Virus record (IMG/VR): IMGVR_UViG_3300010367_000170
Origin: a virus
Taxonomy: Duplodnaviria > Heunggongvirae > Uroviricota > Caudoviricetes
Length of the DNA: 64,000 bases
Strand: one strand, 5' to 3'
In this document: in pieces, positions 43,112-56,112 of the stretch
How positions within the stretch are numbered: position 1 is the first letter of the stretch
Layout: every line of letters begins with the position of its first letter
Translations under genes and position numbers: made by a program
The notes under the pieces: generated by a model
The model's database searches: none
Told to the model about the DNA's origin: nothing
The model's input: only the letters and a program-made list of their open reading frames with translations

Positions 43112-46100
43112 CTACCGCTTGTACGGGGTGTACGACGTCGAGTAGCGGGCACCCAGCTGGAGCATCTGCGTCTGCACGAGGTCACGGAGGTCTCGTTCCG
43201 CTACGACGCTGCCCTGAACGTTGATCACGATTGTCGGACCGGCGCCGACGGTCAAACCGCCGGAGCCGCTCGGAGAGACACCGTAACCGCGCTGCTCATC
43301 CAGAGACACCACATACTCGCCGCCGTGCACGACAGCCAGCTGAGGGGCGCCCCTGGGGCCACTGACAAGTCCGCCGGTGTCGTACGAAGGCAGAGGATGG
43401 CCACCGCCCGAACCCTTGGGTGGCTTGACGACCACATCTCCAGCGTCTTTCTCCAGATCCAGCAGACGCCGCAGCTTCCCGTTCAACGTGTCCACGTTGG
43501 AACTGGCCTTGGAGGTGTCGGCGGTGATAGCGGTGTCAACGCCCTTGGGAATGATGTTCAGCTGATCGATGTAGTCCTTAATGGCTTTCCGGGTCTTGTC
43601 CGACGTCGTCGCCTGGTTCTCGAACTGGGTGATCTGGTCCTTCAGCTTCTTGGTCGCCTCCTCCACCGAGACGTTGTTCGTGATGTTGGCGTTGTAGTTG
43701 TCGATCATCGCCTGCACCGCGCCACGGATAGCGTCACGGTTGCTGATAGCGGCGTCGGAGTCTCCCTTGATAGCGGCACCGTTGTCGTGGAGAGCCTTGG
43801 TGGCATCCTTGATGCTCTTCTTGAACTCGTCCAACGATCGGTCCGCGTTCAAGCCCGCCGACATGTCCTGCTGCTTCTGCATAGCGTTGGTGACAGAATC
43901 CGCCAAACCGTTCATGGCGCTGGCGGTGTCGTTCAAGGCAGGCTGCTGACTGTTCAGAGCAGCGGTAGTGGAGTCGGTGGAGGCGATACCCAACGCCTGA
44001 TCGGCCTGCATCTTGTCCAACGCGGCGAAGTACTGCGGGAAGTCCCGCGCCGTGTTGATCAGGGCATTGCCGTGTTCGTCGGTAACGGAGGCGATCTCGG
44101 CCATCAGGTCCTTAGCGCGGGCCAGCTGGCCGTTCTGCGCGAGGCTCGCCAAACCCCCGTCATACGCCGCCAAGGACTCCTTGGCCTTACCCGTGACCTG
44201 GTTGACCTTGCCCAGTTCGACTCCGAGCTGAGCCATCGGTTCGACGTTCCTCACGGACGACTCCGCAAGATAGTCGAACGAACGCTTCAGGTTGATGACC
44301 TCGGTGCCCTCGAACTTGGTGTTGACCGCCAACTTCCCGGCCAAAGCCTGATTCAACACGCCCAAGTCTTCAGCGGCGTGACCAAACGCCATGCTCGCGT
44401 TCTTGGTGTTGTCCTTCGACCGGATCATGGCCGAGGTGAACTGATCCACGCTCGCCGTCGCCGCAGCAGCCTTGTCGCCGCTGCTGGAAAACGCGGAACT
44501 CAACAACGTCACACCGATAGCCGCCGTGCCGATCAAAGGAACAGCGGCGCCCAGCTTGCCCATGAAGCCGCCCAGGCCCCGAGCGCCCGTAACGCCAGCC
44601 GTCTCCTCCTGAAGGGTCAGCTGCTCCTTGCCGAGGTTCCTCACGGAGTCGGCGGCATACGCCGCTTTCAGCCTCAGCGTGTCGAACACTCCTCCGGCGG
44701 CGATGGTCTTGCTGAGGGTCTGGAACATGTTCAAAACAGTGCCCAGGCCAGCCATTAGGCTGGTGAAGACCTCCAACGCTTTCAAAACGATCAAGCGACC
44801 GATCAAAGCGGGCAGAATGATCTCAGCGAGGAGCTTGATAGTGCTGGAGTTGTCCCTGAAGAAGCCTGTCACGGCGACAATCGCTGGACCGACTACGTGC
44901 GCAAGGACTTCCCCGACACCCTTGAACGCCATCAGGAACCCGCTGGAGACGAACCCTGCGATCGGCTGAAGCGTTTCCCACAGGTTCCGAGCGCCTTCCC
45001 ACACGTCCTTCAAAGTGGTGACGAAGTTGTGAAAGAACTTGGCGACGGCATCCTCAGCTTCGTGAAGCTGCGGGCTGTCCAAGGCGCTGCGGATCTTCTC
45101 GCCCAACTCGCGCAGGATAGGAGCGCCGGTACGAGACACGTAGTCCATGAAGTCCATCAACTTCGGCAACAACACGGTGCCGATCCTGATGGCCATGGTG
45201 TCCAGCGTTTCCTTGACCTGCGAGATACGGAAGTTGAAGCCCTGGGTGATGGTCCCCCAGGTCTCAATGTGGTCACCGGCGCTTTTGGCTCCCTCGGCAA
45301 CCGACTTCTCGTTGGCGGCGAACGTCGCCAGGTTCAATCCGCCGATCTGCAAAGCGGTGTTGGTGTCCACCGTGTCGCCCAAGATCTTCCGCAGCGAACC
45401 GGCGAACGTGTCCGCTCCGGGAACGCCGTTACGCAACGACTGGTTGAAGCTGGTGGAGTTCTTGTACAGGGTCAAGAACTCCGTCGCCATCGCCTTGATC
45501 TTCGGCGGCATGTCGTTCGTAGCCGACGCGAAGTCCTTGGACGAGATGGCGTTCGCTTCCACCTTCTTTGCCAGCTCCAACAACTGAGGCGGCATGTTAG
45601 CCATCATCTGGTTGAGGTCCCGGGCAGCGGTCTTTGACGTGTTGAACGTGTTCTGAAGCGACATGAAGTTCGGACCCATATGGTCCAAAATCGCCTTGTC
45701 AACCAAGCCCATCGTGCCCAACAAACCGCGTTCGCCCAAGTGGGTCTTCAAGTCCTCCGTGGACAAACCGAACGTGGCCATCGCCTTCACGGCAACAGCG
45801 TTCGGAGACTGCAACGACGCAATCGTATGACCCAACATCTGGGCCGCGTTCTGCGCCGTCGTACCGGCAACGGTCATGGTGGCTTCGGCTGCGGCGACGT
45901 CCTGGAACGAAATACCGGCCGACCGCGCCTGAGGCAGAACAGAACTCAAAGACCCGGCGAAGTCCTCCATGGACATCTTGCCCGCCGCCACAGCCTTGAT
46001 CATCATGTTCATCATCGGCACGGAATAGTCCGCACCCTTACCCATGTCGTGCAAGGCGGTAGTCAGAGCGTCAGCGACAGTCTTGACCTCAGCGCCTTCA

Positions 46101-46537
46101 GCGCGGGCACCCTCAGCCGCGATCTGCATGACCTTCAAACCGGCAGCGCCGTGGAAACCCGCAGACTCCACGTAGTACATGCCGTTGGCCAGCTCTTTGG
46201 TGGAAGTACCAGTTGCGGTGGCGATCTTCAACAGCCCGTCGGAGACCTGGGCGATAGGGCCGGTCAACTTGCCGTTGATAGCCGATCCGGTTTCGCCAGC
46301 CGACGTCACCAACTTGATCATCGAGGCTTGCCAGTCCCCGGCCATCTTCACCGAAACGGCAGCGATACCCACACCGGCCAGTCCGACAACCTTGCCAGCC
46401 TTCAGGATCGTCTCGCCGATCTTCTCTGTCTTGGAGGTGAACCCTTCCGCCTCCGCGCCAGCCTTAGACAAGCCCTCAGTGAAACTCTGGGAAAACAGCC
46501 CCAGCTTGATGAAAAGATCAGCAACCTCGGATGCCAC
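43112..46537 (-). CDS. Tail tape measure protein (1141 aa)
   Basis: TAGGAGGCGTCG then GTG. Long alpha-helical Ala/Gly-rich ORF in canonical position. Confidence 0.9.
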   Translation of the reverse strand: MASEVADLFIKLGLFSQSFTEGLSKAGAEAEGFTSKTEKIGETILKAGKVVGLAGVGIAAVSVKMAGDWQASMIKLVTSAGETGSAINGKLTGPIAQVSDGLLKIATATGTSTKELANGMYYVESAGFHGAAGLKVMQIAAEGARAEGAEVKTVADALTTALHDMGKGADYSVPMMNMMIKAVAAGKMSMEDFAGSLSSVLPQARSAGISFQDVAAAEATMTVAGTTAQNAAQMLGHTIASLQSPNAVAVKAMATFGLSTEDLKTHLGERGLLGTMGLVDKAILDHMGPNFMSLQNTFNTSKTAARDLNQMMANMPPQLLELAKKVEANAISSKDFASATNDMPPKIKAMATEFLTLYKNSTSFNQSLRNGVPGADTFAGSLRKILGDTVDTNTALQIGGLNLATFAANEKSVAEGAKSAGDHIETWGTITQGFNFRISQVKETLDTMAIRIGTVLLPKLMDFMDYVSRTGAPILRELGEKIRSALDSPQLHEAEDAVAKFFHNFVTTLKDVWEGARNLWETLQPIAGFVSSGFLMAFKGVGEVLAHVVGPAIVAVTGFFRDNSSTIKLLAEIILPALIGRLIVLKALEVFTSLMAGLGTVLNMFQTLSKTIAAGGVFDTLRLKAAYAADSVRNLGKEQLTLQEETAGVTGARGLGGFMGKLGAAVPLIGTAAIGVTLLSSAFSSSGDKAAAATASVDQFTSAMIRSKDNTKNASMAFGHAAEDLGVLNQALAGKLAVNTKFEGTEVINLKRSFDYLAESSVRNVEPMAQLGVELGKVNQVTGKAKESLAAYDGGLASLAQNGQLARAKDLMAEIASVTDEHGNALINTARDFPQYFAALDKMQADQALGIASTDSTTAALNSQQPALNDTASAMNGLADSVTNAMQKQQDMSAGLNADRSLDEFKKSIKDATKALHDNGAAIKGDSDAAISNRDAIRGAVQAMIDNYNANITNNVSVEEATKKLKDQITQFENQATTSDKTRKAIKDYIDQLNIIPKGVDTAITADTSKASSNVDTLNGKLRRLLDLEKDAGDVVVKPPKGSGGGHPLPSYDTGGLVSGPRGAPQLAVVHGGEYVVSLDEQRGYGVSPSGSGGLTVGAGPTIVINVQGSVVAERDLRDLVQTQMLQLGARYSTSYTPYKR

Positions 46538-46546
46538 CGACGCCTC

Positions 46547-47023
46547 CTAGATGATGACGCGCCAGCCCCTGCCGAACGCTTCCCGATAAATCAGCTGGGC
46601 CGGAACCCCCATAGCGAACTTGAACGCGGGCATCAGGAACGGATATTTGGCTCCATTACGCAAACCGGTCTTCTCCAAATGCATTGCGTACTCGCTCGCC
46701 GGAGTTCTGCTTCTGGTGCCGCCGTACGACGGATAGAAACCGACGCCCATGCCGACGAAACAAGAGAACTCGTCACCGGAGAACTTCACCGGCGTGTGCG
46801 CGATAGCGCGCCGCAACGTACCGGAGATCACAGCCGGACCGGTCCCGGGACGCGCCGGAGTCCGGGTGCCGTACTTGTGAGCCCCCGAACTGGCGTTGAT
46901 CTTGGCTTGCTTCTCCACAACCAACGCCAGATCCTCCAAAGCCTTCCTGGCTCGGAGCTTCGTCTCATTGTCCAGGCCGATGAAAATCCTTGCGAACGTC
47001 CCCTGATGAAGCTCCGTAGCCAC
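46547..47023 (-). CDS. HK97 gp10-family-like (tail completion/neck type) protein (158 aa)
   Basis: C-terminal GAKYPFLMPAF motif typical of the gp10 family. GTG start. Confidence 0.55.
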   Translation of the reverse strand: MATELHQGTFARIFIGLDNETKLRARKALEDLALVVEKQAKINASSGAHKYGTRTPARPGTGPAVISGTLRRAIAHTPVKFSGDEFSCFVGMGVGFYPSYGGTRSRTPASEYAMHLEKTGLRNGAKYPFLMPAFKFAMGVPAQLIYREAFGRGWRVII

Positions 47024-47032
47024 AGCGCACCC

Positions 47033-47655
47033 CTACCTCTTCACTCTCGTAACCCCTGGAGCGCCCCGAACCGTCATCTGCTTCTCGTGATCGCCGCGCT
47101 GGATACGCCGACGCCGCATGATGAAATCCCAGCAGAACTGGCGCACAAACAGAGGGGTCTCCTCGTAGTCGCGCCACGTCCAGTGCATCTCCTGCATCAG
47201 CTCGAAGCACATCCACTCCTCCGGAGCAGCCCCGGATCCCCACGTCCCGTCAAGAATGGACTCGACGTCTATCAGGACGTCGGAGAATCCGGGGTCTTCG
47301 TAGGGGAGTCACCCACCTTGCCCAGCTCTTCAGCGATAGCGGTGTTCACGACCAACGGCAGACGGGCCACCTTGTCCGCCGTCATAGGCATCGTCAACAT
47401 GCCCTGGTCTTCGTTCGGGTCGTCCGCGTCGTACATGCGGATATCGGTGATAAGCCGCGCCAGACGCTCGTACCCTTCCTGCGTCGCCGCCTCCTCGTTC
47501 ACCGGCACCCCGTTGGCGTTGGTACCAATCCGGGACCGCAGCCAGTCCAAAGGAACCAGCTTGGGGTTGCGGAACGTGACGTACAGCTCGACGTCTCCCG
47601 GTTCCGTCAACTCGGGGAACTTGATGGTGATGAACCGGTCCTTCAAACCAGCCAT
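47033..47655 (-). other. Predicted G-T tail assembly chaperone fusion via programmed -1 ribosomal frameshift
   Basis: The -1 frame is open from about 47308 to TAG at 47035-47033. It encodes aromatic-rich ..DVLIDVESILDGTWGSGAAPEEWMCFELMQEMHWTWRDYEETPLFVRQFCWDFIM.., which is gpT-like. No canonical XXXYYYZ heptamer is seen in 47274-47308. Confidence 0.45.
47272..47655 (-). CDS. Tail assembly chaperone (gpG-like, 127 aa)
   Basis: GGGAGGCGTCC then ATG 47655. Acidic. Immediately upstream of the -1 frame extension. Confidence 0.65.
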   Translation of the reverse strand: MAGLKDRFITIKFPELTEPGDVELYVTFRNPKLVPLDWLRSRIGTNANGVPVNEEAATQEGYERLARLITDIRMYDADDPNEDQGMLTMPMTADKVARLPLVVNTAIAEELGKVGDSPTKTPDSPTS

Positions 47656-47696
47656 GGACGCCTCCCGGTCTGTTTCAGTGGTGACAAGCCAATGAA

Positions 47697-47759
47697 AACC
47701 CCCCAGAGCTTCAAGGTTCAAGCTCCTAATTGTCAGAACTTGCCTAGCTCTGGGGGGTT
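47697..47759. terminator. Hairpin AACCCCCCAGAGC ... GCTCTGGGGGGTT (13-bp stem, internal sub-hairpin) after the major tail protein gene
   Basis: Sits between the MTP stop (47801) and the chaperone start (47655). Confidence 0.5.
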
Positions 47760-47800
47760 GACGCCCGCTGTAACGGCAACGCACAGCCTAAACCGCAGGT

Positions 47801-48982
47801 CTAATACGCCGTCGAAACGAAGTTAGTGACCGTCGCAGCAACAGCCCCACCGTCCGTGGAGTTGTAGATCCCCGACAACGAGAAGTCCGCCGTCACGTAC
47901 ACAGACGACAAGTCCACCTTGCCCTTGTACCAACCCGACTTGTTCGTGGTCAACGTAATCACCGACCCCCCGGAAGTCACCGGCTGCGTGATCGTCGCCA
48001 CCGCAGGAAGCTGCGTGTAGTTCAGATACAAGTTGAGGTCGGTGTCGTTCTCGAAGATGGCCTTGTAAGTGCCGTCCGCCTCCAAGGCGCCCTGGAACAC
48101 CTCACGCGGCTGCTGAACGCCGTTGGAGGCGTGGATAGCCTCAGCGACCCTCTTGACCGTCAGGTCGTACGTCAGACCGCGCGTAGACGAACCACCCGCA
48201 TTAGTCATCGTCCACTGCCAACCCAAACCCGGGATGACAGAGCTGAACGAAGGCGTCGGGTTCGGCGTCTGCTCCGCCGACAACCAGCCCGTGTACTTCA
48301 CCGAGAACGTCATCACGGCCTTGGGATCGATCTTGATGGAGCACTCGGAGATCTTAGAACCCGGGAAACCCCGCACAGCAGTACCCAAAGCGTTCGTCGC
48401 CACGTCGTACTTCGTCAACGACCACGACGTCTGAGCCGCCGTGGGGTTCTGCTTGAACGAATGCGTGGACTGCGACGTCACCGAACCGCCAGCAGCGGTG
48501 TGGTTGAACTGCAACCCGGTCGCCGGAGTAGTGATCGGAGCCGAGTAAGGGCCGGAGCCGGTAACAGTACCGACCTGAACATACTCAGTGTTGACGCCGC
48601 CCGAGTCCTGAATACGCAGGATGCTGTTGTTCGGAACCGTAGCGGTCAACGAGACCGAGCTGGCGCCAGCCACCGCGTTCGAGTTCAAGACCGTAGACAC
48701 GCCGGTCGTGGTGACGGTGTCCGGGCCAACGATGCCCCGCAGCAAGTACGGGATAGCGTCCGGGTAGGCCATCACGTCAACAGAGAACGAAGACTCCCCC
48801 GGACCCTGATACATGCCCTGAAGAACCGTGTCGTTGTTGCGGTACGACTCATCCCGCAACTCCGTGTACATGTCCTCAGCGTCGATCTTCGTGCAAGGGA
48901 TGTAGAACGCCGGAACAACGTACGTGCCCTGCGTGGTCTCCTTGGCGATACCCACATATCCAAGTTTCGCAAGAGAAGTCAC
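47801..48982 (-). CDS. Major tail protein (393 aa)
   Basis: GAAGGAAGGTGAG then GTG. Thr/Ser/Gly-rich beta protein upstream of the chaperones. Confidence 0.8.
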   Translation of the reverse strand: MTSLAKLGYVGIAKETTQGTYVVPAFYIPCTKIDAEDMYTELRDESYRNNDTVLQGMYQGPGESSFSVDVMAYPDAIPYLLRGIVGPDTVTTTGVSTVLNSNAVAGASSVSLTATVPNNSILRIQDSGGVNTEYVQVGTVTGSGPYSAPITTPATGLQFNHTAAGGSVTSQSTHSFKQNPTAAQTSWSLTKYDVATNALGTAVRGFPGSKISECSIKIDPKAVMTFSVKYTGWLSAEQTPNPTPSFSSVIPGLGWQWTMTNAGGSSTRGLTYDLTVKRVAEAIHASNGVQQPREVFQGALEADGTYKAIFENDTDLNLYLNYTQLPAVATITQPVTSGGSVITLTTNKSGWYKGKVDLSSVYVTADFSLSGIYNSTDGGAVAATVTNFVSTAY

Positions 48983-49206
48983 TGCTGCTCACCTTCCTTC
49001 ATGTCGGCCACCGCAGCGGCGTCCTTGCGCTTCGTCTTAGGCTCCGACGGAGCCGGAACGTCCTCCAAGACGGTGAACCCGCCAAGAAGAGTGGGAAAAT
49101 CAATCTCCTCGCCAACGCCTACCTTGCGGCGAGGTTCGGAGGGATCGTCCGGGCTAGGCCAAACCATCAGGTCCTGCTCATAGCCGGTGTCGTTGCGTTG
49201 CCGCAC
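48979..49206 (-). CDS. Small acidic virion-module protein (75 aa)
   Basis: AGGAGACAACA then GTG. Stop overlaps the MTP start (GTGA). Confidence 0.5.
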   Translation of the reverse strand: MRQRNDTGYEQDLMVWPSPDDPSEPRRKVGVGEEIDFPTLLGGFTVLEDVPAPSEPKTKRKDAAAVADMKEGEQQ

Positions 49207-49215
49207 TGTTGTCTC

Positions 49216-49761
49216 CTAGTCGGTGAAGTCGCGGTCATCAATCGAATACGTGACAGAAGCCTGAAAGTCCACAGCCGACGTGATCGTGGACTCCGGGTCC
49301 GTGTATTCCACCTGGATCCCCGCCCGAGTACCGGTGACGTCCGACCCCTCAGCCGCTTGGAGGAACGCCCCGCCGTGGGTCTTGTCAGCACCGCCCGGCT
49401 GGTTCATGCCGATACCGCGAATCCTCAACAAAAGCATGTTGATGGCGACGTCAAAAGCCCTCTGGTCCTGTTCAGCGTTTCCCTGGCCGTTAGACAAAGG
49501 CCAACGCAGCCTCAAGGACATCTCGTAGGCCGCGATGGTGCGGTTGAACCCGAAACGCTCCACGCGGACGTTGGACCGCACCACATAGATCTGGGTCTTC
49601 CGGTTAGCAGGCGTACGCGGCACATACGCCTGCACGATGTCCCAAGGACCGCCGTCCGCCGCCATCAAAGACGGCAAACCGTCGGCCGTCGTTCCCGGCA
49701 GCGAAAGCCACAAAGCCTCCCGGTCGCAGGCATCCGCCGACGTGCGGAACGTTCCAGGCAT
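49216..49761 (-). CDS. Head-tail joining / tail terminator-type protein (181 aa), by position
   Basis: GGGAGG 4 nt before ATG. Confidence 0.6.
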   Translation of the reverse strand: MPGTFRTSADACDREALWLSLPGTTADGLPSLMAADGGPWDIVQAYVPRTPANRKTQIYVVRSNVRVERFGFNRTIAAYEMSLRLRWPLSNGQGNAEQDQRAFDVAINMLLLRIRGIGMNQPGGADKTHGGAFLQAAEGSDVTGTRAGIQVEYTDPESTITSAVDFQASVTYSIDDRDFTD

Positions 49762-49770
49762 CCGACCTCC

Positions 49771-50628
49771 CTAACGCTTCTTACGCCGCGCCGGAGCACG
49801 GCTCTGCATGGGTTTCGCTGGCTTCACCGACTTCTTAGCAACCTTCGGCCGGGGATGAGCCGCGCGCGTAGCAGCAGCCTTCTGTGATCTAGCCAGCTTC
49901 TGCTCCGGAGTCATCCGAGCGTTCGCCGCCTTGATGGCCTGGCTCATCTTGACCTTGCGCTCAGCCCTCTGCTCCGCCGTCATCGCCGCGTTGTGAGCCC
50001 TGATGGCCGCCACCAGCTTCAGCTTCCGCGCAGCCTTCTTCTCCACCGACATGTTGGCGTTGAGACGCTTCACAACCTCGGAGCGCTTGGCTTTCCGCGC
50101 AGCTCTCTGCTCATCAGTCAAAGCCGCCAGATGAGCCTTCAAAGTAGCTGCCCGCTTGACCTTCCGCGCAGCCCGCTCTTCAGGGGACAGCCTAGCCAAA
50201 GCAGCCTTGCGCTTCGCCGACATGTTGGCTCTGCGTGCCGCTCTCTGCTCCGGAGACATCGCCGCCAGATGGGCTCGCAGAGAAGCCTTCCTCTTAGCCG
50301 CGCGGGCCTGGCGTTGCGCAGGGGTCAGCTTAGCCAGAGCAGCCTTGCGTTTCGCGCTCATACTGGCCTTGCGTGCAGCCCTCTGAGCCGGAGACATCGC
50401 CGCGAGCTTCTTACGCATAGACGCCACGCGCTTGGCGGTCTGGGCTTTCCTCTGCGCCGCCGTCATCTTGGCGTTGCGCTTCTTGATAGCCGCAGACATC
50501 TTGGCCTTGCGCGCAGCCCTCTGAGCAGGGGTCATATGCGCTAGGCGCGCCTTCATCTTGGCGCGGAAAGCGTCTTTCTGTTTAGCGGTCCACTTGCGGC
50601 CCTTGCGGTGCTTCTTCTGGACAGGCAA
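49771..50628 (-). CDS. Highly basic Ala/Lys/Arg-rich protein built of ten tandem 23-aa repeats (285 aa)
   Basis: Repeat unit M(S/T)P(A/E)QRAARKA.MSAKRKAALA.L x10. Encoded by 69-bp tandem DNA repeats. Embedded in the head-tail gene block. Confidence 0.7.
   Translation of the reverse strand: MPVQKKHRKGRKWTAKQKDAFRAKMKARLAHMTPAQRAARKAKMSAAIKKRNAKMTAAQRKAQTAKRVASMRKKLAAMSPAQRAARKASMSAKRKAALAKLTPAQRQARAAKRKASLRAHLAAMSPEQRAARRANMSAKRKAALARLSPEERAARKVKRAATLKAHLAALTDEQRAARKAKRSEVVKRLNANMSVEKKAARKLKLVAAIRAHNAAMTAEQRAERKVKMSQAIKAANARMTPEQKLARSQKAAATRAAHPRPKVAKKSVKPAKPMQSRAPARRKKR
49842..50538. repeat. About 10 tandem 69-bp coding repeats
   Basis: 23-codon periodicity visible in the protein and in DNA (…GCCTTGCG…CGCAGCCCTCTG… recurring). 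Confidence 0.6.
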
Positions 50629-50631
50629 ATC

Positions 50632-51291
50632 TCACCGCCTGGTGTACGCCGTCAGGATCTCCATAGCGTCGAGCCGCAGGGCGTCTGGATCGTGGCCGTG
50701 CGAAGCCTGCGCAGGATCGAGCTGTTTCAACACCACCGATGCGGCCATGAATTCGGCCGCCTGCTCCAGGTCCAGGGGGACGGTGGAATACCCGCCGGAG
50801 TACGTCACGACGATGGTGGTGCCGGTGGGCACGTACGTGCCCAACTGGAACCGGCAGTGACCGGTGTCCGGTTCGTACTGCGTAGTGTTCGGTACCACGG
50901 CCTGCGTGCCGGAATAGGAACGCAGAAGCTCGATAGAGCTGATCGATCCGGTCCACATCTCCGGGTAACGCGCAGGGTGTTCCCGAACCCAGAAGTGTCG
51001 CACCAGCTGCGAGGAGCCGAGCGACTGGGCGCGGGACATACCGATCTGTGCCGACGGTTCCATTGGACCGGGGATCTCGGTGTTGTCGTCCACATCCATC
51101 ATCTGGGCCCGTTGTGTTTCGGTGATGGTGAACGGGGCCAGACGCCGGTCGGTAGCGGATTCACACATGCGGGTGGACCGCAGCATGATCCGGTCCAGGG
51201 CGGAGGGGGTGAAGTCGCGCACCAGGTCCGCGAACGCCCCTGACTGAATGATCGCGGAGGAACAGAGCGGCGTTGGGGCGTCAACGGGCAT
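50632..51291 (-). CDS. Head-tail connector-type protein (219 aa), by position
   Basis: TAGGAGCGCACC then ATG. Confidence 0.6.
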   Translation of the reverse strand: MPVDAPTPLCSSAIIQSGAFADLVRDFTPSALDRIMLRSTRMCESATDRRLAPFTITETQRAQMMDVDDNTEIPGPMEPSAQIGMSRAQSLGSSQLVRHFWVREHPARYPEMWTGSISSIELLRSYSGTQAVVPNTTQYEPDTGHCRFQLGTYVPTGTTIVVTYSGGYSTVPLDLEQAAEFMAASVVLKQLDPAQASHGHDPDALRLDAMEILTAYTRR

Positions 51292-51304
51292 GGTGCGCTC
51301 CTAT

Positions 51305-51568
51305 CTACTCGGAGATCTCGGTTTTCTTGGGGCGTCCACGCTTGGGCTTGGAGGGTTCGTCGTCGTCAGCGGGTTCCTGGGTGTTCTCCGGTTCCGTCTC
51401 CGGGTCCTCTTCCACGGGTTCGGCTTTTGGGGGTTCGGCTTCGCTGAAGCCGCCGTGGGGGATGTTGAGGAGTTCCCAGGCGAGTTCGTCGTGGACTTCG
51501 ATCACCTGTCCGTCGTGTTCCCACCGGTAGCCGGGAGCGTTTCCCGCCTGTGACTTCCGCAGATACAT
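51305..51568 (-). CDS. Small virion-module protein (87 aa), acidic/basic tail
   Basis: AAAGGCGGCAG then ATG. Confidence 0.55.
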   Translation of the reverse strand: MYLRKSQAGNAPGYRWEHDGQVIEVHDELAWELLNIPHGGFSEAEPPKAEPVEEDPETEPENTQEPADDDEPSKPKRGRPKKTEISE

Positions 51569-51674
51569 GCTGCCGCCTTTACGTCGTTTACCGGTTCCGG
51601 TAGCGTAGGTAACTCGTTACTCGGGTAGGTAGGTGCCTACCTGGTACAACACACTAACCCGGAGGAGAAGACCC
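51569..51674. promoter_or_regulatory. Divergent promoter/operator region with GTAGGTA iterons and palindrome AGGTAGGtgCCTACCT (51628-51643)
   Basis: GTAGGTA at 51606, GGTAGGTAGG at 51625-34, perfect 7-bp-arm palindrome, plus GTAACtcGTTAC (51610-21) spaced variant of the GTAACGTTAC palindrome. Confidence 0.45.
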
Positions 51675-51920
51675 GTGGATTACTTGGTGGTGCTCACCCT
51701 CGCCTACCGCGACGGCTCCCGCATGTGCTACGCCGACCACCGAGAAGTCGTCACCGTCGAAGCGGGCGACAAGACCAGCGACATCCTCCAGACCGCCCAC
51801 GACAAGATCGTCGCCGACAACAAGATCGGCAACCCCGAGGGCTGCTCCGTCACCTTCTGGAGCATCACCCCCAACGTTCTCATGCGTCCGCCCACCAACC
51901 GGCAGACAGGACGTAAGTAA
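51675..51920 (+). CDS. Hypothetical protein (81 aa), first gene of plus accessory block
   Basis: CCGGAGGAGAAGACCC then GTG 51675. Confidence 0.55.
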   Translation: MDYLVVLTLAYRDGSRMCYADHREVVTVEAGDKTSDILQTAHDKIVADNKIGNPEGCSVTFWSITPNVLMRPPTNRQTGRK

Positions 51921-51929
51921 GCTCCACGC

Positions 51930-52523
51930 ATGCCGACAACGCGCCCCGTCATCAGCTCCAAACCCATCCTCAGCTCCAAACTCCGCGTCGAACTACTACA
52001 ACGCCAAGGCCACGAACTCGTGATCAAAGCCAGCAACGAACGCGCCGAGATCGAAGTGAAACGAGCCGACCGCCAAAACCACACCGTCATCATCACCCCC
52101 GACGACGTACCGAGCCAACGCCGCAACAGCAAAACCTTCAAGAAATACCCGCAGTCCCTGCTCATCGCTCTCGCCATCCACGCCGCCTGCGACTGGAACG
52201 ACGAAGTGGACTACACCAACAAACTCGAACAAGCCACCGACGTAGACCCCACCGGCTGCGTCTGCATCATGTGCCGCGACGGACAACACGTACCCCTGAA
52301 CCGGGCCACCGCCATCAACATCGCCTACATCCTGCTAGGGAAGCAACGCAACAACACCGGACTCAACATCGACGTCGTCACCGAACACGTCGTCACCCCC
52401 GACAGCCACCTGACCCTGACCGACACCCCCCACTACGTGGAAGCCCGAGTCATGGACAACGGCAACTACCGCCGATACGACCTGCGGCCCTGGTGGGACG
52501 ACATACAGAAAGGACACACCTGA
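51930..52523 (+). CDS. Hypothetical protein (197 aa)
   Basis: ATG 10 nt after the upstream stop. Weak RBS. Strong coding bias. Confidence 0.55.
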   Translation: MPTTRPVISSKPILSSKLRVELLQRQGHELVIKASNERAEIEVKRADRQNHTVIITPDDVPSQRRNSKTFKKYPQSLLIALAIHAACDWNDEVDYTNKLEQATDVDPTGCVCIMCRDGQHVPLNRATAINIAYILLGKQRNNTGLNIDVVTEHVVTPDSHLTLTDTPHYVEARVMDNGNYRRYDLRPWWDDIQKGHT

Positions 52524-52894
52524 TGGGCTACTGGCCCCGCGCCACATTGTCATACGGCATCGACCTGCCCCGGTTCAACGCCGCAGACAACTCCTGGTAC
52601 CACCAGGACGCCCCGGAAGAAGCAGGCTCCGCCCTCATCCGCGAATCCCTCCCCGCCAACACCTGCGGCGTGATCGAACGGCCCGACGGCGGATACCGCG
52701 TCGTGGCCCGCTACTACAGCGCCGACGGCGGACGCGGCGCCAGGCCGGAACGCATCAGCGGCGAAGCTCTCATGCCGCCGGACAGCGCCGTCAACGATCT
52801 CCTGGAGGCCCTGAAACTGCTGCTGGGCGTAGAGAAACTGACCGACTTGGCAGGCGTCGAACCGGACTGGGTCCTGTCCGCCGCCACGATCTAG
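52523..52894 (+). CDS. Hypothetical protein (123 aa), ATGA-coupled
   Basis: ATG 52523 overlaps upstream TGA. Confidence 0.5.
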   Translation: MGYWPRATLSYGIDLPRFNAADNSWYHQDAPEEAGSALIRESLPANTCGVIERPDGGYRVVARYYSADGGRGARPERISGEALMPPDSAVNDLLEALKLLLGVEKLTDLAGVEPDWVLSAATI

Positions 52895-52903
52895 GGAACC
52901 GAG

Positions 52904-53641
52904 ATGAAACGGCGCGCCGTCACCGTGCCCGTCCTGTCGTACGGTCAACTGGCATTCCTGAACGCCATGACCGTCAGCAGTTTCTTCGCCGACCTCCACC
53001 ACCCGTACTGGCCGTTGAGGATGTTCTCCACGATCCTCAACGTCTGGTGCGTGTACTCCACGCTGCGCCTAATGACGCGAAACGGCCAGCCCCTCACCCT
53101 CACCGTAGGCAAGGAGAACCCCGACAGGATTTCGGCCGCGCCGGAGAAACGCGAACCGGCAGCGTTTCCCCCGGAACCCAACCAGTGTTTCGTCTGCGGC
53201 AACTACGACCCGCACCGCTTCGAGGTTTTCGGTGAAGCCGCGCACGCCACCTGCCTGGAATGGCTCGGAGACTGGCCCATGCCGTCCTGGCGGATCTGCT
53301 GCCGCGACCGGGCCGACAACCACGGCTTCCGAACCGACGGCTACATCGCCTACCGTGCGGGCCACTACCTGGTGGACCTGGGGAGCCTGCCCGGTACCGC
53401 AACCCGGCAGCAGATCATCGACCACTGCAACAGCAACACAACCCTGCGGCGCCGTCTCGACAGGGGACTGGTCGCTGAACTGGAGATGCCCAACGGGCGC
53501 ACCATCAGATACGACATCCCCGCGTCCGGGACACCCATCGACTCGGAGACAGCCAAAGCCTTCTACAACGAGGAAGGCTCGACCGTTGACGAACGGATGA
53601 TGGCCCTGTACCGCAAGAGAATCCTCAAGGAGAACGAGTGA
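52904..53641 (+). CDS. Hypothetical protein with Cys/His cluster (245 aa)
   Basis: GGGAACCGAG then ATG. CFVCG..H..CLEW..CCRD. Confidence 0.6.
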   Translation: MKRRAVTVPVLSYGQLAFLNAMTVSSFFADLHHPYWPLRMFSTILNVWCVYSTLRLMTRNGQPLTLTVGKENPDRISAAPEKREPAAFPPEPNQCFVCGNYDPHRFEVFGEAAHATCLEWLGDWPMPSWRICCRDRADNHGFRTDGYIAYRAGHYLVDLGSLPGTATRQQIIDHCNSNTTLRRRLDRGLVAELEMPNGRTIRYDIPASGTPIDSETAKAFYNEEGSTVDERMMALYRKRILKENE

Positions 53642-54135
53642 ACATTGACATGGAGAAGTGGACCCACCGCGCGGCTCCGCTCCTCATCGCCACCGTCGTC
53701 CTGTCGTCGCCCACGGTCCTGCTTCCGAGCAACTGGTGGGGACGTCTGATCAACACCGCCGTCGTTCTGCCGCTCGTGACGTTGGTGATGCTGAACCTGT
53801 ACCACGGCAAGAGGTTCTGCGAGTACTGCGCCGAAGACACGCCCGCCGACGGGCTGGCTACAGCTCGCCGCAAGTCCCGCACCCTCAAGTTCTACCACCG
53901 GTCCATCACCCCGTACGGGCTGGTGTACCTGGCGGCGATGCTGGCTGTCCCCAACATGTTGCCCCGGCTGTGGCCGTTTGCCGTCGCCTACGTCGCGTTC
54001 CAGCCTGGGCTGCTGTTCTTCATCTGGGCTACCCGCACCCACAACCTTCTGGAGCCGTGGTGCCCGTGGTGCAACGGCGGAGACGGCGGTTTGCGTGAGC
54101 CCTCCCCCGACCCCGTCATCCCCCAGAAGGTGTGA
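53638..54135 (+). CDS. Polytopic membrane protein (165 aa), GTGA-coupled
   Basis: At least 3 TM helices. C-terminal CPWCNGGDGG. Confidence 0.55.
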   Translation: MNIDMEKWTHRAAPLLIATVVLSSPTVLLPSNWWGRLINTAVVLPLVTLVMLNLYHGKRFCEYCAEDTPADGLATARRKSRTLKFYHRSITPYGLVYLAAMLAVPNMLPRLWPFAVAYVAFQPGLLFFIWATRTHNLLEPWCPWCNGGDGGLREPSPDPVIPQKV

Positions 54136-54395
54136 AAGCCGTGAGAGGTCACACGATTCCGCTGTGGTTCACGAACCTCGCTCGGTTCGCCCACGCCCCG
54201 GTCAACTTCGACCCGACCCGTGATCCGGAGTGGCTGGGCAACGAGGTCCAGGAGCAGTTGTACGGCGTCCACGTTCTGAAGCCGGGGGCACCCCGCATGC
54301 CGTTGCGGATCGTGTCCCTGGCCGAAGGGCTGCGCATGCCCCCGATAACGCCGGAGGATTGCCCTCCGGCCGGAGAGGAGACCCCCCGTGGGTGA
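54132..54395 (+). CDS. Hypothetical protein (87 aa)
   Basis: GTG overlapping the upstream stop (GTGTGA). Confidence 0.45.
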   Translation: MKAVRGHTIPLWFTNLARFAHAPVNFDPTRDPEWLGNEVQEQLYGVHVLKPGAPRMPLRIVSLAEGLRMPPITPEDCPPAGEETPRG

Positions 54396-54675
54396 GATCA
54401 TCGGCGCCGTCATCTCCCTGCTGTCCCTCGGAACCGGATACGGGCTAGGACGCATACGGCGCAGCAAGTCCCTGCCGAAACCGCCGAAGCTGAAATGCTC
54501 CTGCGACCACGGCCTGTCGTTCCACGACAAGGACACCGGACACTGCCACGGCCTCAACGAGAACAACCGGTACGAAGACGGCGTGTTCAGCTACTCCGAG
54601 CAAGAGCCGTGCACATGCCGCCAGTACGACGGGCCGGTGCCGTATGACACCTACGTGGCGAGGGAACTCACGTGA
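54388..54675 (+). CDS. Membrane-anchored Cys/His protein (95 aa)
   Basis: N-terminal TM IIGAVISLLSLGTGYGLG then CSCDHGLSFHDKDTGHCH. Confidence 0.45.
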   Translation: MGEIIGAVISLLSLGTGYGLGRIRRSKSLPKPPKLKCSCDHGLSFHDKDTGHCHGLNENNRYEDGVFSYSEQEPCTCRQYDGPVPYDTYVARELT

Positions 54676-54968
54676 TCTGGTACACCGTCTACCTCGTTGC
54701 CGGTCTGCTTCTCACGACCCTATTCCTGATCGACGTCCGTAGCATGCGGAAACACGCTGCCGAATGCGACCGGCATCGTGAGGCCAAAAGCTTCCTCGAC
54801 AAGCTGGATGAGTCCCCGCCTCTGTTGGGTTTGGTGTCCTGCTTCATGATCTTGCTGTGGCCGGTCGTGGTGTTCATGTTCCTGATGTCGCTCTTCGACG
54901 ACGATGATGATGACGACAACGAGGACGACAACGACCCGCAGACCAGAGTGCCGGTGCAATACCGATGA
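54672..54968 (+). CDS. Two-TM membrane protein with poly-Asp tail (98 aa)
   Basis: GTGA-coupled. DDDDDDDNEDDND tract before the C-terminus. Confidence 0.5.
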   Translation: MIWYTVYLVAGLLLTTLFLIDVRSMRKHAAECDRHREAKSFLDKLDESPPLLGLVSCFMILLWPVVVFMFLMSLFDDDDDDDNEDDNDPQTRVPVQYR

Positions 54969-55084
54969 TCACTCTGATCCTGGGAGCTGTGTTGTTCATC
55001 GCCTCCGGCACCCTGATGGGAATCGCAGACTGCTGGGACTACCTGAAAGCCCTCCGGGGCAGCCGACACCGCAAGGAGGAGTAG
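54965..55084 (+). CDS. Tiny membrane protein (39 aa), ATGA-coupled
   Basis: ITLILGAVLFIASGTLMGIA. Confidence 0.4.
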   Translation: MITLILGAVLFIASGTLMGIADCWDYLKALRGSRHRKEE

Positions 55085-55299
55085 TGCCGTACGCGCCGTT
55101 GAAGGATGAGCCGTACCCGCCGGAGGAATCGTGGTTCCTGGTTGTGTGGCTCGATGAGGAGGAAGCCTGGTGCCCCACCCGGCCATCCACAACCAAACCC
55201 GAAGCCTTGGAGGCGTTGAACAAGATGCGTCAAGCCGACCCGGACCGCATCGTGCGCCTGGTGCGTGAGAACCGTTTCTACAGTACGGAGGCGGACTAG
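55084..55299 (+). CDS. Hypothetical protein (71 aa)
   Basis: AAGGAGGAG then GTG 55084. Confidence 0.5.
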   Translation: MPYAPLKDEPYPPEESWFLVVWLDEEEAWCPTRPSTTKPEALEALNKMRQADPDRIVRLVRENRFYSTEAD

Positions 55300-55739
55300 T
55301 GACTGCTTACATCAGGGTAGCGGCAGCAGCCACGGCGGTGGCGGTAGGGGCCATCCTCGGTCTCGGAGCCCACCCCGGCAACCGGAAACCAACTGCTGTC
55401 GCTTCGGCAGCGCAGAGCTTGCTCTACGCCCAGCGCGTCGGCTGCACCCTCACCTGGACCGGGCGTGACGCCGTCGTGTTCACCGACACGCCCTGCCTCG
55501 CCGTCCCGGGCTTCACTACCGTAGCCGGGTACGCCCCGCCGACCGGCGACCGGCGATTCGGGGTTGTCTGCGCTCTGCGTAGCGGAGACGCCTTCAACGT
55601 CATCGCCAGCCGGGGCGGCGACGACAACGCCGGTCTGCTCTGCGACGCCATCATCGGCAAGGGCTGGAGCGAAGATCCGCAGATGGGTGACGACTTCGAC
55701 AACGTGATTCAGGAGAGTTCCCGTGCAGTCCGCGCCTGA
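55299..55739 (+). CDS. Putative secreted protein (146 aa)
   Basis: N-terminal signal-like AAAATAVAVGAILGLGA. GTG start after TAG. Confidence 0.5.
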   Translation: MTAYIRVAAAATAVAVGAILGLGAHPGNRKPTAVASAAQSLLYAQRVGCTLTWTGRDAVVFTDTPCLAVPGFTTVAGYAPPTGDRRFGVVCALRSGDAFNVIASRGGDDNAGLLCDAIIGKGWSEDPQMGDDFDNVIQESSRAVRA

Positions 55740-56112
55740 GACGGTTTCGGTTGCCGACAAGGCTTGGGCCACGTTCATTCCTGATCGTCGCCCCGCCTTC
55801 AAGGCCCACAACACGCTGGGTCAGGCGAAGAACGCCGTCATCAACATCAGCCGGTACGGCGCTCGTACCGGGTTCACCGAAGACATGGTGATCTACAAGT
55901 TGGGCGAGGACGGGCAGTACGCGCCTTGGCTGAAGATCGCCCGGGGTACGTTCCGCAACGACTACAAGGAACTGGCGGAGAAGCCGCAGAGCCGTTCCGA
56001 CAGGATGGGCGAGGTTCTGCGGCTGGAGAGGAGCCTGAGGTACCACCTCGATGAGGCGATACGTCTCCGCGTAGAGATCGAGGTGCGGCGTAAGGAACTG
56101 GAGGGGTCGTGA
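55723..56112 (+). CDS. Hypothetical protein (129 aa)
   Basis: CAGGAGAG then GTG. Confidence 0.55.
   Translation: MQSAPETVSVADKAWATFIPDRRPAFKAHNTLGQAKNAVINISRYGARTGFTEDMVIYKLGEDGQYAPWLKIARGTFRNDYKELAEKPQSRSDRMGEVLRLERSLRYHLDEAIRLRVEIEVRRKELEGS

What the first reader, a model, noticed from the sequence alone, without database searches (positions are those of the whole stretch)
49771..50628. Histone-tail-like basic protein made of ten perfect-period 23-aa repeats inside the virion gene block
- **Composition:** about 285 aa, pI very high, almost only A/K/R/M/S/Q.
- **Repeat:** the unit M(S/T)P(A/E)QRAARKA.MSAKRKAALA.L occurs 10 times in tandem (69-bp DNA repeats, about 49842-50538).
- **Resemblance:** the composition recalls actinobacterial HupB/Hlp C-terminal tails and histone H1.
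- **Position:** it sits between head-tail connector-type and tail-terminator-type genes, which suggests either a packaged DNA-condensing or ejection protein, or a length-variable virion component.
- **Instability:** tandem 69-bp repeats are also hotspots for copy-number variation.
Basis: seen in the sequence. Interest (0 to 1): 0.65.

Follow-up and report, generated by a model that had tools for sequence, protein, structure and literature searches.

The report
STPR-repeat DNA-binding protein in phage neck
A soil actinobacterial phage encodes, between its head-to-tail adaptor and tail-terminator genes, a very basic protein made of ten 23-residue repeats that match the STPR DNA-binding repeat so far described mainly in animals; it probably coats phage DNA, and its relatives link STPR to the NUMOD3 repeats of homing endonucleases.

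Summary
ORF 49771-50628 (-) encodes 285 aa: pI about 12, net charge +77, and ten units spaced exactly 23 residues apart.

It is not histone-tail-like. It passes the Pfam STPRs model (PF21107, 39.4 bits against a cut-off of 27). Its only PDB sequence match is the Bombyx FMBP-1 STPR domain, aligned in register, and permutation controls show the similarity is position-specific (1 of 20,000).

The gene is real, with dN/dS of 0.09-0.29 against relatives. It lies 3 nt and 9 nt from its neighbours. AlphaFold2 plus Foldseek identify the upstream neighbour as a head-to-tail adaptor and the downstream neighbour as a tail terminator.

The same slot holds a polybasic repeat protein in 31 of 35 related loci:
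- Close soil-metagenome relatives carry STPR-type proteins with 8-11 units.
- Prophages of Streptomyces, Kitasatospora, Streptacidiphilus, Catenulispora and Amycolatopsis carry NUMOD3-type units of 19-24 aa, or only a 73-aa Arg/His peptide.
- Intermediate forms connect the two repeat types.

Best reading: a late, neck-operon, stand-alone DNA-coating protein that would cover about 40 bp per molecule if it binds as BmSTPR does, probably virion-associated. DNA binding and packaging are inferred, not shown. I rate it a new variant of a known kind, of moderate to high interest.

The parts
49771..50628 (-). Whole ORF including the stop codon: a 285-aa polybasic STPR-type repeat protein.
   Evidence: ORF list. 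GC3 is 0.74 in this frame and codon use matches neighbouring structural genes. dN/dS against orthologs is 0.09-0.29. Pfam STPRs 39.4 bits against a cut-off of 27. PDB match to 5d23_A.
50536..50628 (-). N-terminal 31 residues (MPVQKKHRKGRKWTAKQKDAFRAKMKARLAH), net charge +11. This is shorter than in relatives, which carry an extra His/Gly-rich leader.
49846..50535 (-). Array of ten 23-aa (69-bp) units, residues 32-261. The lineage consensus is MTAAQRAARKAKMSAAIKARNAN. Two unit types alternate in the middle of the array, giving a 46-aa super-period. Net charge is +55.
   Evidence: TRF reports period 138 at 50181-50433.
49771..49845 (-). C-terminal 24-residue non-repeat basic tail (KVAKKSVKPAKPMQSRAPARRKKR) plus the stop codon. 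Every positional ortholog ends in a run of Arg/Lys.
50632..51291 (-). Upstream neighbour, 219 aa: head-to-tail adaptor. Its stop codon lies 3 nt before the repeat gene's start.
   Evidence: AlphaFold2 mean pLDDT 84. Foldseek against PDB gives neck or adaptor chains of DT57C/T5, RcGTA and phage 812, E 2.6e-5 to 6e-4.
49216..49761 (-). Downstream neighbour, 181 aa: tail terminator. It starts 9 nt after the repeat gene's stop.
   Evidence: AlphaFold2 mean pLDDT 90. Foldseek against PDB gives the cyanophage A-1(L) terminator, T5 p142 and lambda gpU, E 1e-4 to 4e-3, probability about 1.0.
51305..51568 (-). First gene of the neck operon, 87 aa. It has a conserved N-terminus, an acidic Pro/Glu-rich middle and an AT-hook-like C-terminus (KPKRGRPKK).
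   Evidence: Weak match to phrog_748, head-tail connector. Orthologs keep a GRP motif.
48979..49206 (-). Conserved 75-aa ORF between the terminator and tail tube genes.
   Evidence: Present in the relatives. No family match.
47801..48982 (-). Tail tube (major tail) protein, 393 aa.
   Evidence: phrog_290, tail category. The 392/393-aa orthologs carry PF18906 Phage_tube_2.

Best explanation
The ORF is a real late gene of an uncultured phage whose more distant relatives are prophages in Streptomyces and related actinobacteria. It appears to be co-transcribed with the head-to-tail adaptor and tail-terminator genes.

Its product is a stand-alone DNA-binding protein built from ten STPR-type units. 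Each 23-residue unit is expected to form one helix of about 21 residues that starts at a Thr/Ser-Pro motif. This is inferred from the solved FMBP-1 STPR-DNA structures. In those structures successive helices zig-zag along the DNA major groove, each covers 4 bp, and conserved Arg6 and Arg9 hold the phosphates.

Ten units would follow about 40 bp, nearly four turns of DNA. At +5.5 net charge per unit, the array would neutralise about 70% of the 80 phosphates it covers. The basic N-terminal leader and the Arg/Lys C-terminal tail add a further +22.

The gene descends from NUMOD3-repeat proteins that occupy the same slot in related prophages.

The protein most likely acts on the phage's own genome at head completion. 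My preferred version is a virion-associated protein bound to packaged DNA, possibly to the last-packaged segment held in the portal-adaptor channel, that enters the cell with the DNA and shields it.

**Shown:** the gene is real and under purifying selection; its repeat architecture; its STPR-type sequence signature; its place in the neck operon; its positional orthology with NUMOD3-type proteins.

**Inferred:** the helical structure, DNA binding, the 4-bp-per-unit footprint, virion incorporation and co-injection.
For: **STPR signature**
- Pfam PF21107 STPRs scores 39.4 bits (E 8.2e-10) against a gathering score of 27. Orthologs score 57.5, 44.7, 42.7 and 30.8 bits.
- The only PDB sequence match is the FMBP-1 STPR domain 5d23_A (E 6.2e-5), aligned in register over about four units.
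- The in-register BLOSUM62 score against the BmSTPR units is 26.5 per unit (35.7% identity). The best of the 22 other cyclic shifts scores 6.5. Only 1 of 20,000 column permutations reaches the observed score.
- Thr/Ser2 is present in 10 of 10 units, Arg/Lys6 in 10 of 10 and Arg9 in 9 of 10. Met13 and Ser14 are present in about half. These are the DNA-contact and helix-cap positions reported for BmSTPR (PMC4856987).
- The 23-aa spacing is kept in 62 units from 8 orthologs.

**A real gene**
- dN/dS is 0.09-0.29.
- GC3 and codon use match neighbouring genes.

**Operon and neighbours**
- The gaps to the neighbouring genes are 3 nt and 9 nt.
- No promoter-like or terminator-like site lies on the minus strand between 49200 and 51300.
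- The neighbours are an adaptor and a tail terminator.

**Conservation of the slot**
- A polybasic repeat protein occupies the slot in 31 of 35 related loci.
- Total net charge is +73 to +88 in all STPR-type orthologs, whatever their copy number.

**Link to NUMOD3**
- Pfam PF07460 scores 31-70 bits in the more distant positional orthologs.
- NCBI names the Amycolatopsis ortholog 'NUMOD3 domain-containing DNA-binding protein'.
- phmmer links the NUMOD3-type proteins to STPR-type L004 and L003 at E 5e-14 to 4e-4 with Z = 1e6.
- NUMOD3 is a minor-groove DNA-binding helix module of I-TevI, I-HmuI and I-BmoI (PMC3664794).

**Positional analogy**
- T4 encodes its DNA end protector gp2 between head-closure gp4 and tail-terminator gp3.
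Against: - No experiment or proteome shows that the protein is in virions or binds DNA.
- Three STPR hallmarks are missing. Glu1 is Met/Leu in all ten units. Tyr16 is absent. Arg20 is mostly His or Ala.
- The best-matching stretch (positions 2-9, T-P-E-Q-R-A-A-R) also occurs in unrelated periplasmic helical-repeat proteins that appeared among the hits (P0014, P0019, P0027). Part of the similarity could therefore be convergent.
- BmSTPR prefers AT-rich DNA, whereas this genome is 63% GC.
- The slot is empty in one distant relative (L016). It holds an unrelated non-basic ORF in the S. griseocarneus prophage, which is represented by two loci (L008 and L020). The protein is therefore not indispensable across the wider lineage.
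- There is no sequence similarity to T4 gp2.
- I could not predict the structure of the repeat protein itself, because both prediction jobs went on the neighbours.
Confidence: 0.5

Rival explanations
1. It is a late-expressed DNA-binding accessory factor that is not part of the virion. It could help DNA packaging or head completion, as lambda gpFI does (a non-virion packaging factor encoded between head and tail genes). It could also compact or mask host or phage DNA, or regulate transcription late in infection.
For: The same DNA-binding signature applies. Nothing observed here requires incorporation into particles. STPR and NUMOD3 modules elsewhere belong to transcription factors and nucleases rather than virions (PMC4856987, PMC3664794). 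The slot is empty or replaced in L016 and in L008/L020, which fits an accessory role. The lambda gpFI comparison rests on my own knowledge.
Against: The gene stays tightly placed inside the neck operon across relatives whose adaptor identity ranges from 52% to 91%. A constant very high charge and a poly-Arg C-terminus are unusual for a regulator. No HTH or other sequence-specific domain is present.
Confidence: 0.27
2. It is the leftover DNA-binding arm of a homing endonuclease that once inserted between the adaptor and terminator genes and then lost its nuclease domain. It has little or no function for the phage.
For: Database relatives of the repeat are mostly fused to GIY-YIG, HNH or other nuclease domains, to a serine-recombinase zinc ribbon, or to methyltransferases. 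NUMOD3 is defined as a nuclease-associated module. Free-standing homing endonucleases often sit between phage structural genes (own knowledge); relatives carry an Endonuclease_7 gene nearby.
Against: None of the positional orthologs read here has a recognisable nuclease domain. dN/dS of 0.09-0.29 shows purifying selection. The strict 23-aa spacing, the total charge and the poly-Arg terminus are all conserved. The origin may be right, but 'functionless relic' is not.
Confidence: 0.1
3. One reading: a disordered protein resembling histone H1 or the HupB/Hlp tail, which condenses DNA through low-complexity Lys/Ala/Pro repeats.
For: The composition is rich in Ala, Lys and Arg, with pI about 12.
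Against: The period is a strict 23 aa, with position-specific conservation and a Thr/Ser-Pro start to each unit. Top autocorrelation lags are 46, 23 and 19, not short ones. Proline is 4% and mostly fixed at unit position 3. The significant matches are to the helical STPR repeat, and no histone or HU family was reported.
Confidence: 0.05
4. It is a structural spacer or ruler, or an RNA-binding protein. The helical repeat length would set a dimension of the neck, or the Arg-rich helices would bind RNA.
For: Copy number varies in whole units. Arg-rich helices can bind RNA (own knowledge).
Against: More distant orthologs shrink to a 73-aa Arg/His peptide, or change period to 19-24 aa, while the adaptor and terminator stay conserved. 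A ruler would not tolerate this. No RNA element was found nearby.
Confidence: 0.05

Closest known systems
STPR domain of Bombyx mori FMBP-1 (Pfam PF21107; PDB 5D23, 5D2Q, 5D2S). The same domain occurs in human ZNF821 and in other animal proteins.
   Same: - Tandem units of exactly 23 residues.
- Thr/Ser at position 2, Arg at positions 6 and 9, and Lys/Arg12-Met13-Ser14-Ala15.
- The Pfam gathering score is passed.
- The lineage consensus (MTAAQRAARKAKMSAAIKARNAN) and BmSTPR repeat 1 (ETSEERAARLAKMSAYAAQRLAN) share 12-13 of 23 positions.
   Different: - Position 1 is Met/Leu instead of the conserved Glu.
- There is no Tyr16, and Arg20 is variable.
- It has 8-11 units, against the 3-7 reported.
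- It is a stand-alone protein with no other domain.
- It is encoded in a phage neck operon in a 63% GC genome, whereas the family was described as mainly animal with one moss case.
- It shows an alternating two-unit super-period.
NUMOD3 motif (Pfam PF07460), the minor-groove-binding helix module of the homing endonucleases I-TevI, I-HmuI and I-BmoI.
   Same: - Positional orthologs in Streptomyces, Kitasatospora, Streptacidiphilus, Catenulispora and Amycolatopsis prophages are NUMOD3 arrays.
- The N-terminal units of STPR-type orthologs L003 and L004 are NUMOD3-like, and phmmer links the two types.
   Different: - The window protein itself does not hit PF07460.
- Its units are 23 aa without the Gly-(Arg/Lys)-His-His linker, whereas NUMOD3-type units are 19, 22 or 24 aa.
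- No nuclease domain is attached.
T4 gp2, the DNA end protector.
   Same: - The gene order is the same: head completion or adaptor, then this protein, then tail terminator.
- Size and charge are similar: 274 aa with pI 10.1, against 285 aa with pI about 12.
- The proposed job, a virion protein bound to a DNA end and injected with it, is what gp2 is annotated to do.
   Different: - There is no sequence similarity.
- gp2 is not a repeat protein.
- The analogy is positional only.
Histone H1 tails and actinobacterial HupB/Hlp C-terminal tails.
   Same: High Lys, Ala and Arg content, and a presumed role in neutralising DNA charge.
   Different: This protein has a strict 23-aa period with a helix-start motif and position-specific conservation. 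The comparison with the short Pro-rich repeats of H1 and HupB tails rests on my own knowledge. There is no family-level match.

Membership tests
STPR (PF21107) | Passes the curated Pfam gathering score. | tested here: met
   39.4 bits against 27, E 8.2e-10. Orthologs L028 (57.5), L001 (44.7), L002 (42.7) and L027 (30.8) also pass. L003, L004, L029 and L039 fall below the cut-off, and L036 gave no STPRs hit.
STPR (PF21107) | Tandem units strictly 23 residues long. | tested here: met
   All nine spacings in the window protein are 23 aa. In eight orthologs the spacing is 23 aa throughout, apart from one 19-aa unit each in L001, L003 and L004.
STPR (PF21107) | The three residues conserved in every repeat: Glu1, Thr/Ser2 and Arg9 (PMC4856987). 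| tested here: inconclusive
   Thr/Ser2 is present in 10 of 10 units and Arg9 in 9 of 10. Glu1 is present in 0 of 10, replaced by Met in 7 and Leu in 3. Two of the three features are met and one is not.
STPR (PF21107) | The DNA-contact residues of BmSTPR: Arg6, Arg9, Met13, Ser14, Tyr16, Ala17, Arg20 and Leu21. | tested here: inconclusive
   Position 6 is Arg in 8 units and Lys in 2. Arg9 is present in 9. Met13 is present in 4 and Ser14 in 5. Tyr16 is present in none. Position 17 is Ile, Arg or Leu. Position 20 is His in 4, Ala in 3, and Arg, Lys and Leu in 1 each. Leu21 is present in 5.
STPR (PF21107) | Position-specific similarity to solved STPR units that goes beyond composition. | tested here: met
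   The cyclic-shift control gives 26.5 in register against at most 6.5 out of register. Only 1 of 20,000 column permutations reaches the observed score. phmmer against the PDB gives E 6.2e-5, in register.
STPR (PF21107) | One helix per unit lying in the DNA major groove, 4 bp per unit. | not testable with these tools
NUMOD3 (PF07460) | Passes the Pfam gathering score of 20.4. | tested here: not met
   The window protein gave no NUMOD3 hit, even at E up to 10. The test is met in positional orthologs L005, L006, L007, L011 and L013, at 31-70 bits.
NUMOD3 (PF07460) | Attached to a homing-endonuclease catalytic domain (GIY-YIG or HNH). | tested here: not met
   No other domain is present in the window protein or in any positional ortholog read here.
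Histone H1 / HupB-tail-like proteins | Short, Pro-containing Lys/Ala repeats that are intrinsically disordered. | tested here: not met
   Autocorrelation peaks fall at lags 46, 23 and 19. Proline is 4% and lies mainly at unit position 3. No histone or HU family was reported.
T4 gp2-type DNA end protector | Sequence homology to gp2. | tested here: not met
   phmmer of T4 gp2 against the orthologs gave nothing significant. Only the gene order matches.
Virion (structural) protein | Presence in purified particles. | not testable with these tools
   No cultured relative exists in the phage collection, and no proteome is available.

The most novel reading that the evidence does not exclude
This lineage of actinobacterial phages packages a dedicated groove-following DNA-coating protein. 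It is encoded between the adaptor and terminator genes, wraps about 40 bp of the genome (plausibly the end held in the neck channel), and is injected with the DNA as a shield. This would be a new class of virion DNA-associated protein. In addition, the positional series from NUMOD3 arrays through mixed proteins to 23-aa STPR arrays would show that the 'animal' STPR DNA-binding domain and the NUMOD3 module of homing endonucleases are one evolving family with phage roots.
Probability: 0.22. Interest if true: 0.8.

Novelty: new variant of a known kind. Interest (0 to 1): 0.6.

Why it matters
[quoted passage not shown] It described the family as mainly animal. Here the arrays are longer (8-11 units), stand alone, and sit in an uncultured phage lineage whose more distant relatives are prophages of Streptomyces-group bacteria. 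This widens the known range of the fold and provides simple natural proteins for studying how unit number sets the DNA footprint.
- **Evolution of the repeat.** The same genomic slot switches between NUMOD3-type and STPR-type units, with intermediates. This is a concrete, testable case of one DNA-binding repeat evolving into another.
- **Phage biology.** A conserved gene for a protein of about +80 net charge between the adaptor and terminator genes suggests a DNA-associated neck or capsid component in an uncultured lineage with contigs of about 100 kb. I found no published description of such a component. It could bear on genome retention, ejection, or protection from host nucleases.

Tried and rejected
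**Searches that found nothing or little**
- The word-indexed homolog search with the protein found nothing at E <= 1e-3.
- The exact-sequence contig look-up found nothing.
- Megablast of 47000-53000, and tblastn of the protein and of the adaptor, against 50,697 phage records found nothing. The tube protein matched only a Thermoanaerobacterium phage at 33% identity.
- NCBIfam gave no hit. PHROGs gave only a weak family of unknown function.
- A PDB profile search with the adaptor alignment found nothing useful.
- Rfam found only the two tRNAs.
- Exact cluster look-ups failed for 9 of 10 orthologs, probably because the called start codons differ.

I spent the two remaining homolog searches on the neighbouring genes to build permitted alignments. 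As a result the repeat protein itself was never modelled.

**Leads that stayed inconclusive**
- P0004 is a 910-aa protein with N-terminal repeats. I examined it as a possible informative fusion, but it has no Pfam or PHROG match.
- L039 comes from a 70% GC lineage and has an STPR-type gene upstream of a 422-aa ORF. Its neighbours could not be identified: hhalign gave E 0.0032 at 9.8% probability for the terminator profile and nothing for the adaptor profile, and Pfam was empty. I do not count it as independent support.
- T4 gp2 was tested for homology and showed none.

**Readings rejected**
- That the antisense ORF 49993-50544 (+) is the real gene. Its frame lacks the conserved, selected reading seen on the minus strand.
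- That the repeats are a recent slippage-prone array. DNA identity between units is too low.
Full report
**1. The observation**

The window holds a minus-strand ORF at 49771-50628 with a TTG start, encoding 285 aa.
- Composition is A 27%, K 16% and R 14%, then M, Q, L and S at about 5% each. Calculated pI is about 12 and net charge is +77.
- After a 31-residue basic leader there are ten units starting at residues 32, 55... 239. Every spacing is exactly 23 residues. A 24-residue basic tail ending in RRKKR follows.
- Identity at lag 46 (0.48) exceeds that at lag 23 (0.37). Two unit types therefore alternate, which explains why Tandem Repeats Finder reports a 138-bp period.
- At the DNA level the 69-bp units are only 36-80% identical. 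The period is perfect in the protein, but the DNA is not a near-perfect repeat.

**2. It is a real gene**
- GC3 is highest in this frame (0.74), and codon choice matches the neighbouring structural genes.
- Orthologs retain the frame. Nei-Gojobori dN/dS against six relatives is 0.09-0.29. The adaptor gives 0.08-0.14 and the terminator 0.10-0.22. dS is above 1, so these ratios are approximate.
- The start lies 3 nt after the upstream gene's stop codon, with a GGCGGTGA Shine-Dalgarno-like sequence. The next gene starts 9 nt after its stop.
- No promoter-like or terminator-like site lies on the minus strand between 49200 and 51300.

**3. What the repeat is**
- Pfam gives PF21107 'STPRs' at 39.4 bits (E 8.2e-10), above the gathering score of 27.
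- A phmmer search of all PDB sequences returns one hit, the Bombyx FMBP-1 STPR domain (5d23_A, E 6.2e-5), aligned in register over about four units.
- Because the protein has biased composition, I ran two controls that keep both composition and periodicity:
  - Cyclic shifts of the BmSTPR units give at most 6.5 per unit, against 26.5 in register at 35.7% identity.
  - Only 1 of 20,000 random permutations of the 23 columns, each allowed its best register, reaches the observed score.
- The similarity lies in positions 2-9 (T-P-E-Q-R-A-A-R), positions 12-15 (K-M-S-A) and position 22.
- In the FMBP-1-DNA crystal structures each 23-residue repeat is a 2-residue linker plus a 21-residue helix. The helices zig-zag along the major groove, each covering 4 bp. 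Arg6, Arg9, Tyr16 and Arg20 contact phosphates, and Met13, Ser14, Ala17 and Leu21 contact thymine methyl groups (PMC4856987).
- In the window protein, position 2 (Thr/Ser) and position 6 (Arg/Lys) are kept in 10 of 10 units and Arg9 in 9 of 10. Met13 and Ser14 are kept in about half. Glu1, one of the three hallmark residues, is replaced by Met or Leu. Tyr16 is absent and Arg20 is variable.
- The 2016 paper described the family as mainly animal with one moss case, with 3-7 repeats. Full-text searches found no report of STPR in phages or bacteria.

**4. Gene neighbourhood**
- The window is phage DNA. It contains a major capsid protein (59443-60822), an SPP1 gp7-like minor head domain (63325-63939), a tape measure protein (43112-46537) and an endolysin (37272-38276).
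- I modelled the two flanking proteins with AlphaFold2, using alignments of database homologs.
  - The 181-aa downstream protein (mean pLDDT 90) matches tail terminators: cyanophage A-1(L), T5 p142 and lambda gpU.
  - The 219-aa upstream protein (mean pLDDT 84) matches neck or adaptor chains of DT57C/T5, the Rhodobacter gene transfer agent and phage 812. The phage 812 neck paper lists portal, adaptor, stopper and terminator as the neck components.
- The 393-aa gene further downstream is the tail tube. Its orthologs carry PF18906.

**5. Relatives**
- No cultured phage is related.
- Scans with the adaptor protein, plus contig look-ups with terminator homologs, recovered 35 related loci.
  - Close relatives (adaptor 76-91% identical) come from soil metagenomes, with contigs up to about 100-108 kb.
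  - More distant ones (52-66%) are prophages in Streptomyces, Kitasatospora, Streptacidiphilus, Catenulispora and Amycolatopsis.
- In 31 of the 35 loci the slot between adaptor and terminator holds a polybasic protein with K+R of 0.27-0.38 that ends in an Arg/Lys run.
- The close relatives carry STPR-type proteins with 8-11 units. Indels come in whole units of 19, 23 or 46 aa, and the 23-aa spacing is kept in 62 units. Total net charge stays at +73 to +88 whatever the copy number.
- The more distant relatives carry NUMOD3 arrays of 2-7 units with periods of 19, 22 or 24 aa, followed by His/Arg-rich tails. Pfam PF07460 scores 31-70 bits against a cut-off of 20.4. Some have only a 73-aa Arg/His peptide.
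- NCBI names the Amycolatopsis ortholog 'NUMOD3 domain-containing DNA-binding protein'.
- The exceptions:
  - The slot is empty in L016.
  - The S. griseocarneus prophage, represented by both L008 and L020, holds an unrelated non-basic ORF there.
  - In L031 the contig ends inside the upstream ORF, so that slot could not be read.

**6. STPR-type and NUMOD3-type proteins are versions of one gene**
- They are positional orthologs.
- STPR-type proteins L003 and L004 begin with NUMOD3-like units (GHPMSAAAKAKLRARMKGKHH). A 19-aa unit follows (MTAAQKAKLRASIKARMAK), and then the 23-aa units.
- phmmer links NUMOD3-type L019, L010 and L025 to L004 and L003 at E 5e-14 to 4e-4 with Z = 1e6, mainly through these N-terminal units. 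HMMER's bias terms are large for these hits.
- NUMOD3 is the minor-groove-binding helix module of I-TevI, I-HmuI and I-BmoI (PMC3664794).
- An exhaustive HMMER search of 1.84 billion representative proteins gave only 29 hits at E <= 1e-3. Most are similar repeats fused to a recombinase zinc ribbon, to GIY-YIG, HNH or other nuclease-like domains, or to methyltransferases. A few are eukaryotic STPR proteins.
- The hits also include signal-peptide proteins with 'MTPEQR' repeats (P0014, P0019, P0027). This shows that the start-of-helix motif alone can arise independently. Convergence with animal STPR therefore cannot be excluded.

**7. Mechanism**

*Shown:* a selected, operon-embedded, slot-conserved, stand-alone protein with an STPR-type signature and NUMOD3-type orthologs.

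*Inferred:*
- Each unit forms a helix that lies in a DNA groove.
- Ten units would follow about 40 bp.
- With +5.5 net charge per unit against 8 phosphates per 4 bp, the array would neutralise about 70% of the covered backbone.
- Conservation of charge, strict spacing and a poly-Arg end, rather than of exact sequence, suggests non-specific or shape-based DNA binding.
- The gene's fixed place between adaptor and terminator suggests that it acts on the phage genome at head completion.

My preferred version is a virion-associated protein on packaged DNA, possibly on the segment held in the neck channel, that enters the host with the DNA. T4 offers a positional precedent. Its DNA end protector gp2 (274 aa, pI 10.1) is encoded between head-closure gp4 and terminator gp3. 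There is no sequence similarity between the two.

I put about 0.75 on DNA binding and about 0.4 on virion association.

**8. Rivals**
- **A non-virion late DNA-binding accessory factor (0.27).** This is the main rival and cannot be separated from my preferred version without proteomics.
- **A functionless homing-endonuclease relic (0.1).** This is contradicted by purifying selection and slot conservation, although such an origin is plausible.
- **The histone H1/HupB-like reading (0.05).** This fails on periodicity and on the specific family match.
- **A ruler or RNA-binding role (0.05).** This fits poorly with orthologs that shrink to 73 aa.

**9. Verdict**

The protein is best described as a phage STPR-type, NUMOD3-derived repeat DNA-binding protein of the neck operon. 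It is a new variant of a known kind. I score interest at about 0.6, for three reasons:
- It extends a DNA-binding fold described as mainly animal into phages.
- It documents a transition between two repeat types at one locus.
- It points to a possible, so far undescribed, DNA-associated virion component that simple experiments can test.

Noticed in passing
window 51633-59166 (+ strand): A block of about 13 small plus-strand ORFs with a coding-type GC3 signature splits the minus-strand structural module. It lies between the major capsid gene (59443-60822) and the neck operon (from 51568 downwards). Relative L036 has the capsid gene directly upstream of the small protein and adaptor genes, so this looks like a variable inserted island. 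Its functions are unknown.
   Followed up: partly
window 51305-51568 (-): This 87-aa first gene of the neck operon has a conserved N-terminus, an acidic Pro/Glu-rich middle and an AT-hook-like C-terminus (KPKRGRPKK). A GRP motif recurs in orthologs L002, L025, L028, L029 and L032. It may be a second DNA-contacting protein in the same operon. The only family match is a weak one to phrog_748.
   Followed up: partly
window 60854-62818 (-): The 654-aa protein just upstream of the capsid gene contains a long His-rich tract (HGHVHD...HTHGHVHAHE...HAHGHTHFH...HVHTHDHDH). It has no PHROG match. It may be a scaffold or protease fusion with a metal-binding segment.
   Followed up: no
window about 22400-23700: A stretch of about 1.3 kb has no ORF with a coding GC3 signature, and it shows the strongest GC skew in the window (-0.38 for 22001-24000; the plus strand is C-rich). 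It could be a regulatory or origin-like region.
   Followed up: no
window 6575-6648 and 6749-6822 (+): Two phage-borne tRNA genes, tRNA-Val(CAC) and tRNA-Ile with the unusual anticodon TAT. Both ARAGORN and Rfam find them.
   Followed up: no
L008 6660-7545 and L020 5660-6545 (Streptomyces griseocarneus prophage): The slot between adaptor and terminator holds a non-basic ORF of about 290 aa with a hydrophobic N-terminal segment, in place of the polybasic repeat protein. In L016 the slot is empty.
   Followed up: partly
L039 3983-4714 (IMG/VR contig, 70% GC): A different, higher-GC phage lineage encodes a 243-aa STPR-type protein (Pfam STPRs 19.9 bits, below the cut-off). It lies just upstream of a 111-aa ORF and a 422-aa ORF. 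The neighbours could not be identified, so whether this is also a neck module remains open.
   Followed up: partly
L029 4456-4857, L030 4456-4887 and L031 2309-2710: Close relatives carry an opposite-strand Endonuclease_7 (PF02945) gene immediately after the tail tube gene. This mobile-nuclease-type insertion is absent from the same place in the window.
   Followed up: no
window 46547-47023 (-): A 158-aa ORF between the tube and tape measure genes, where tail chaperones usually lie, gives a weak hit to phrog_5 'tail completion or Neck1 protein' (E 4e-5). No canonical stopper gene was recognised anywhere in the neck operon.
   Followed up: no
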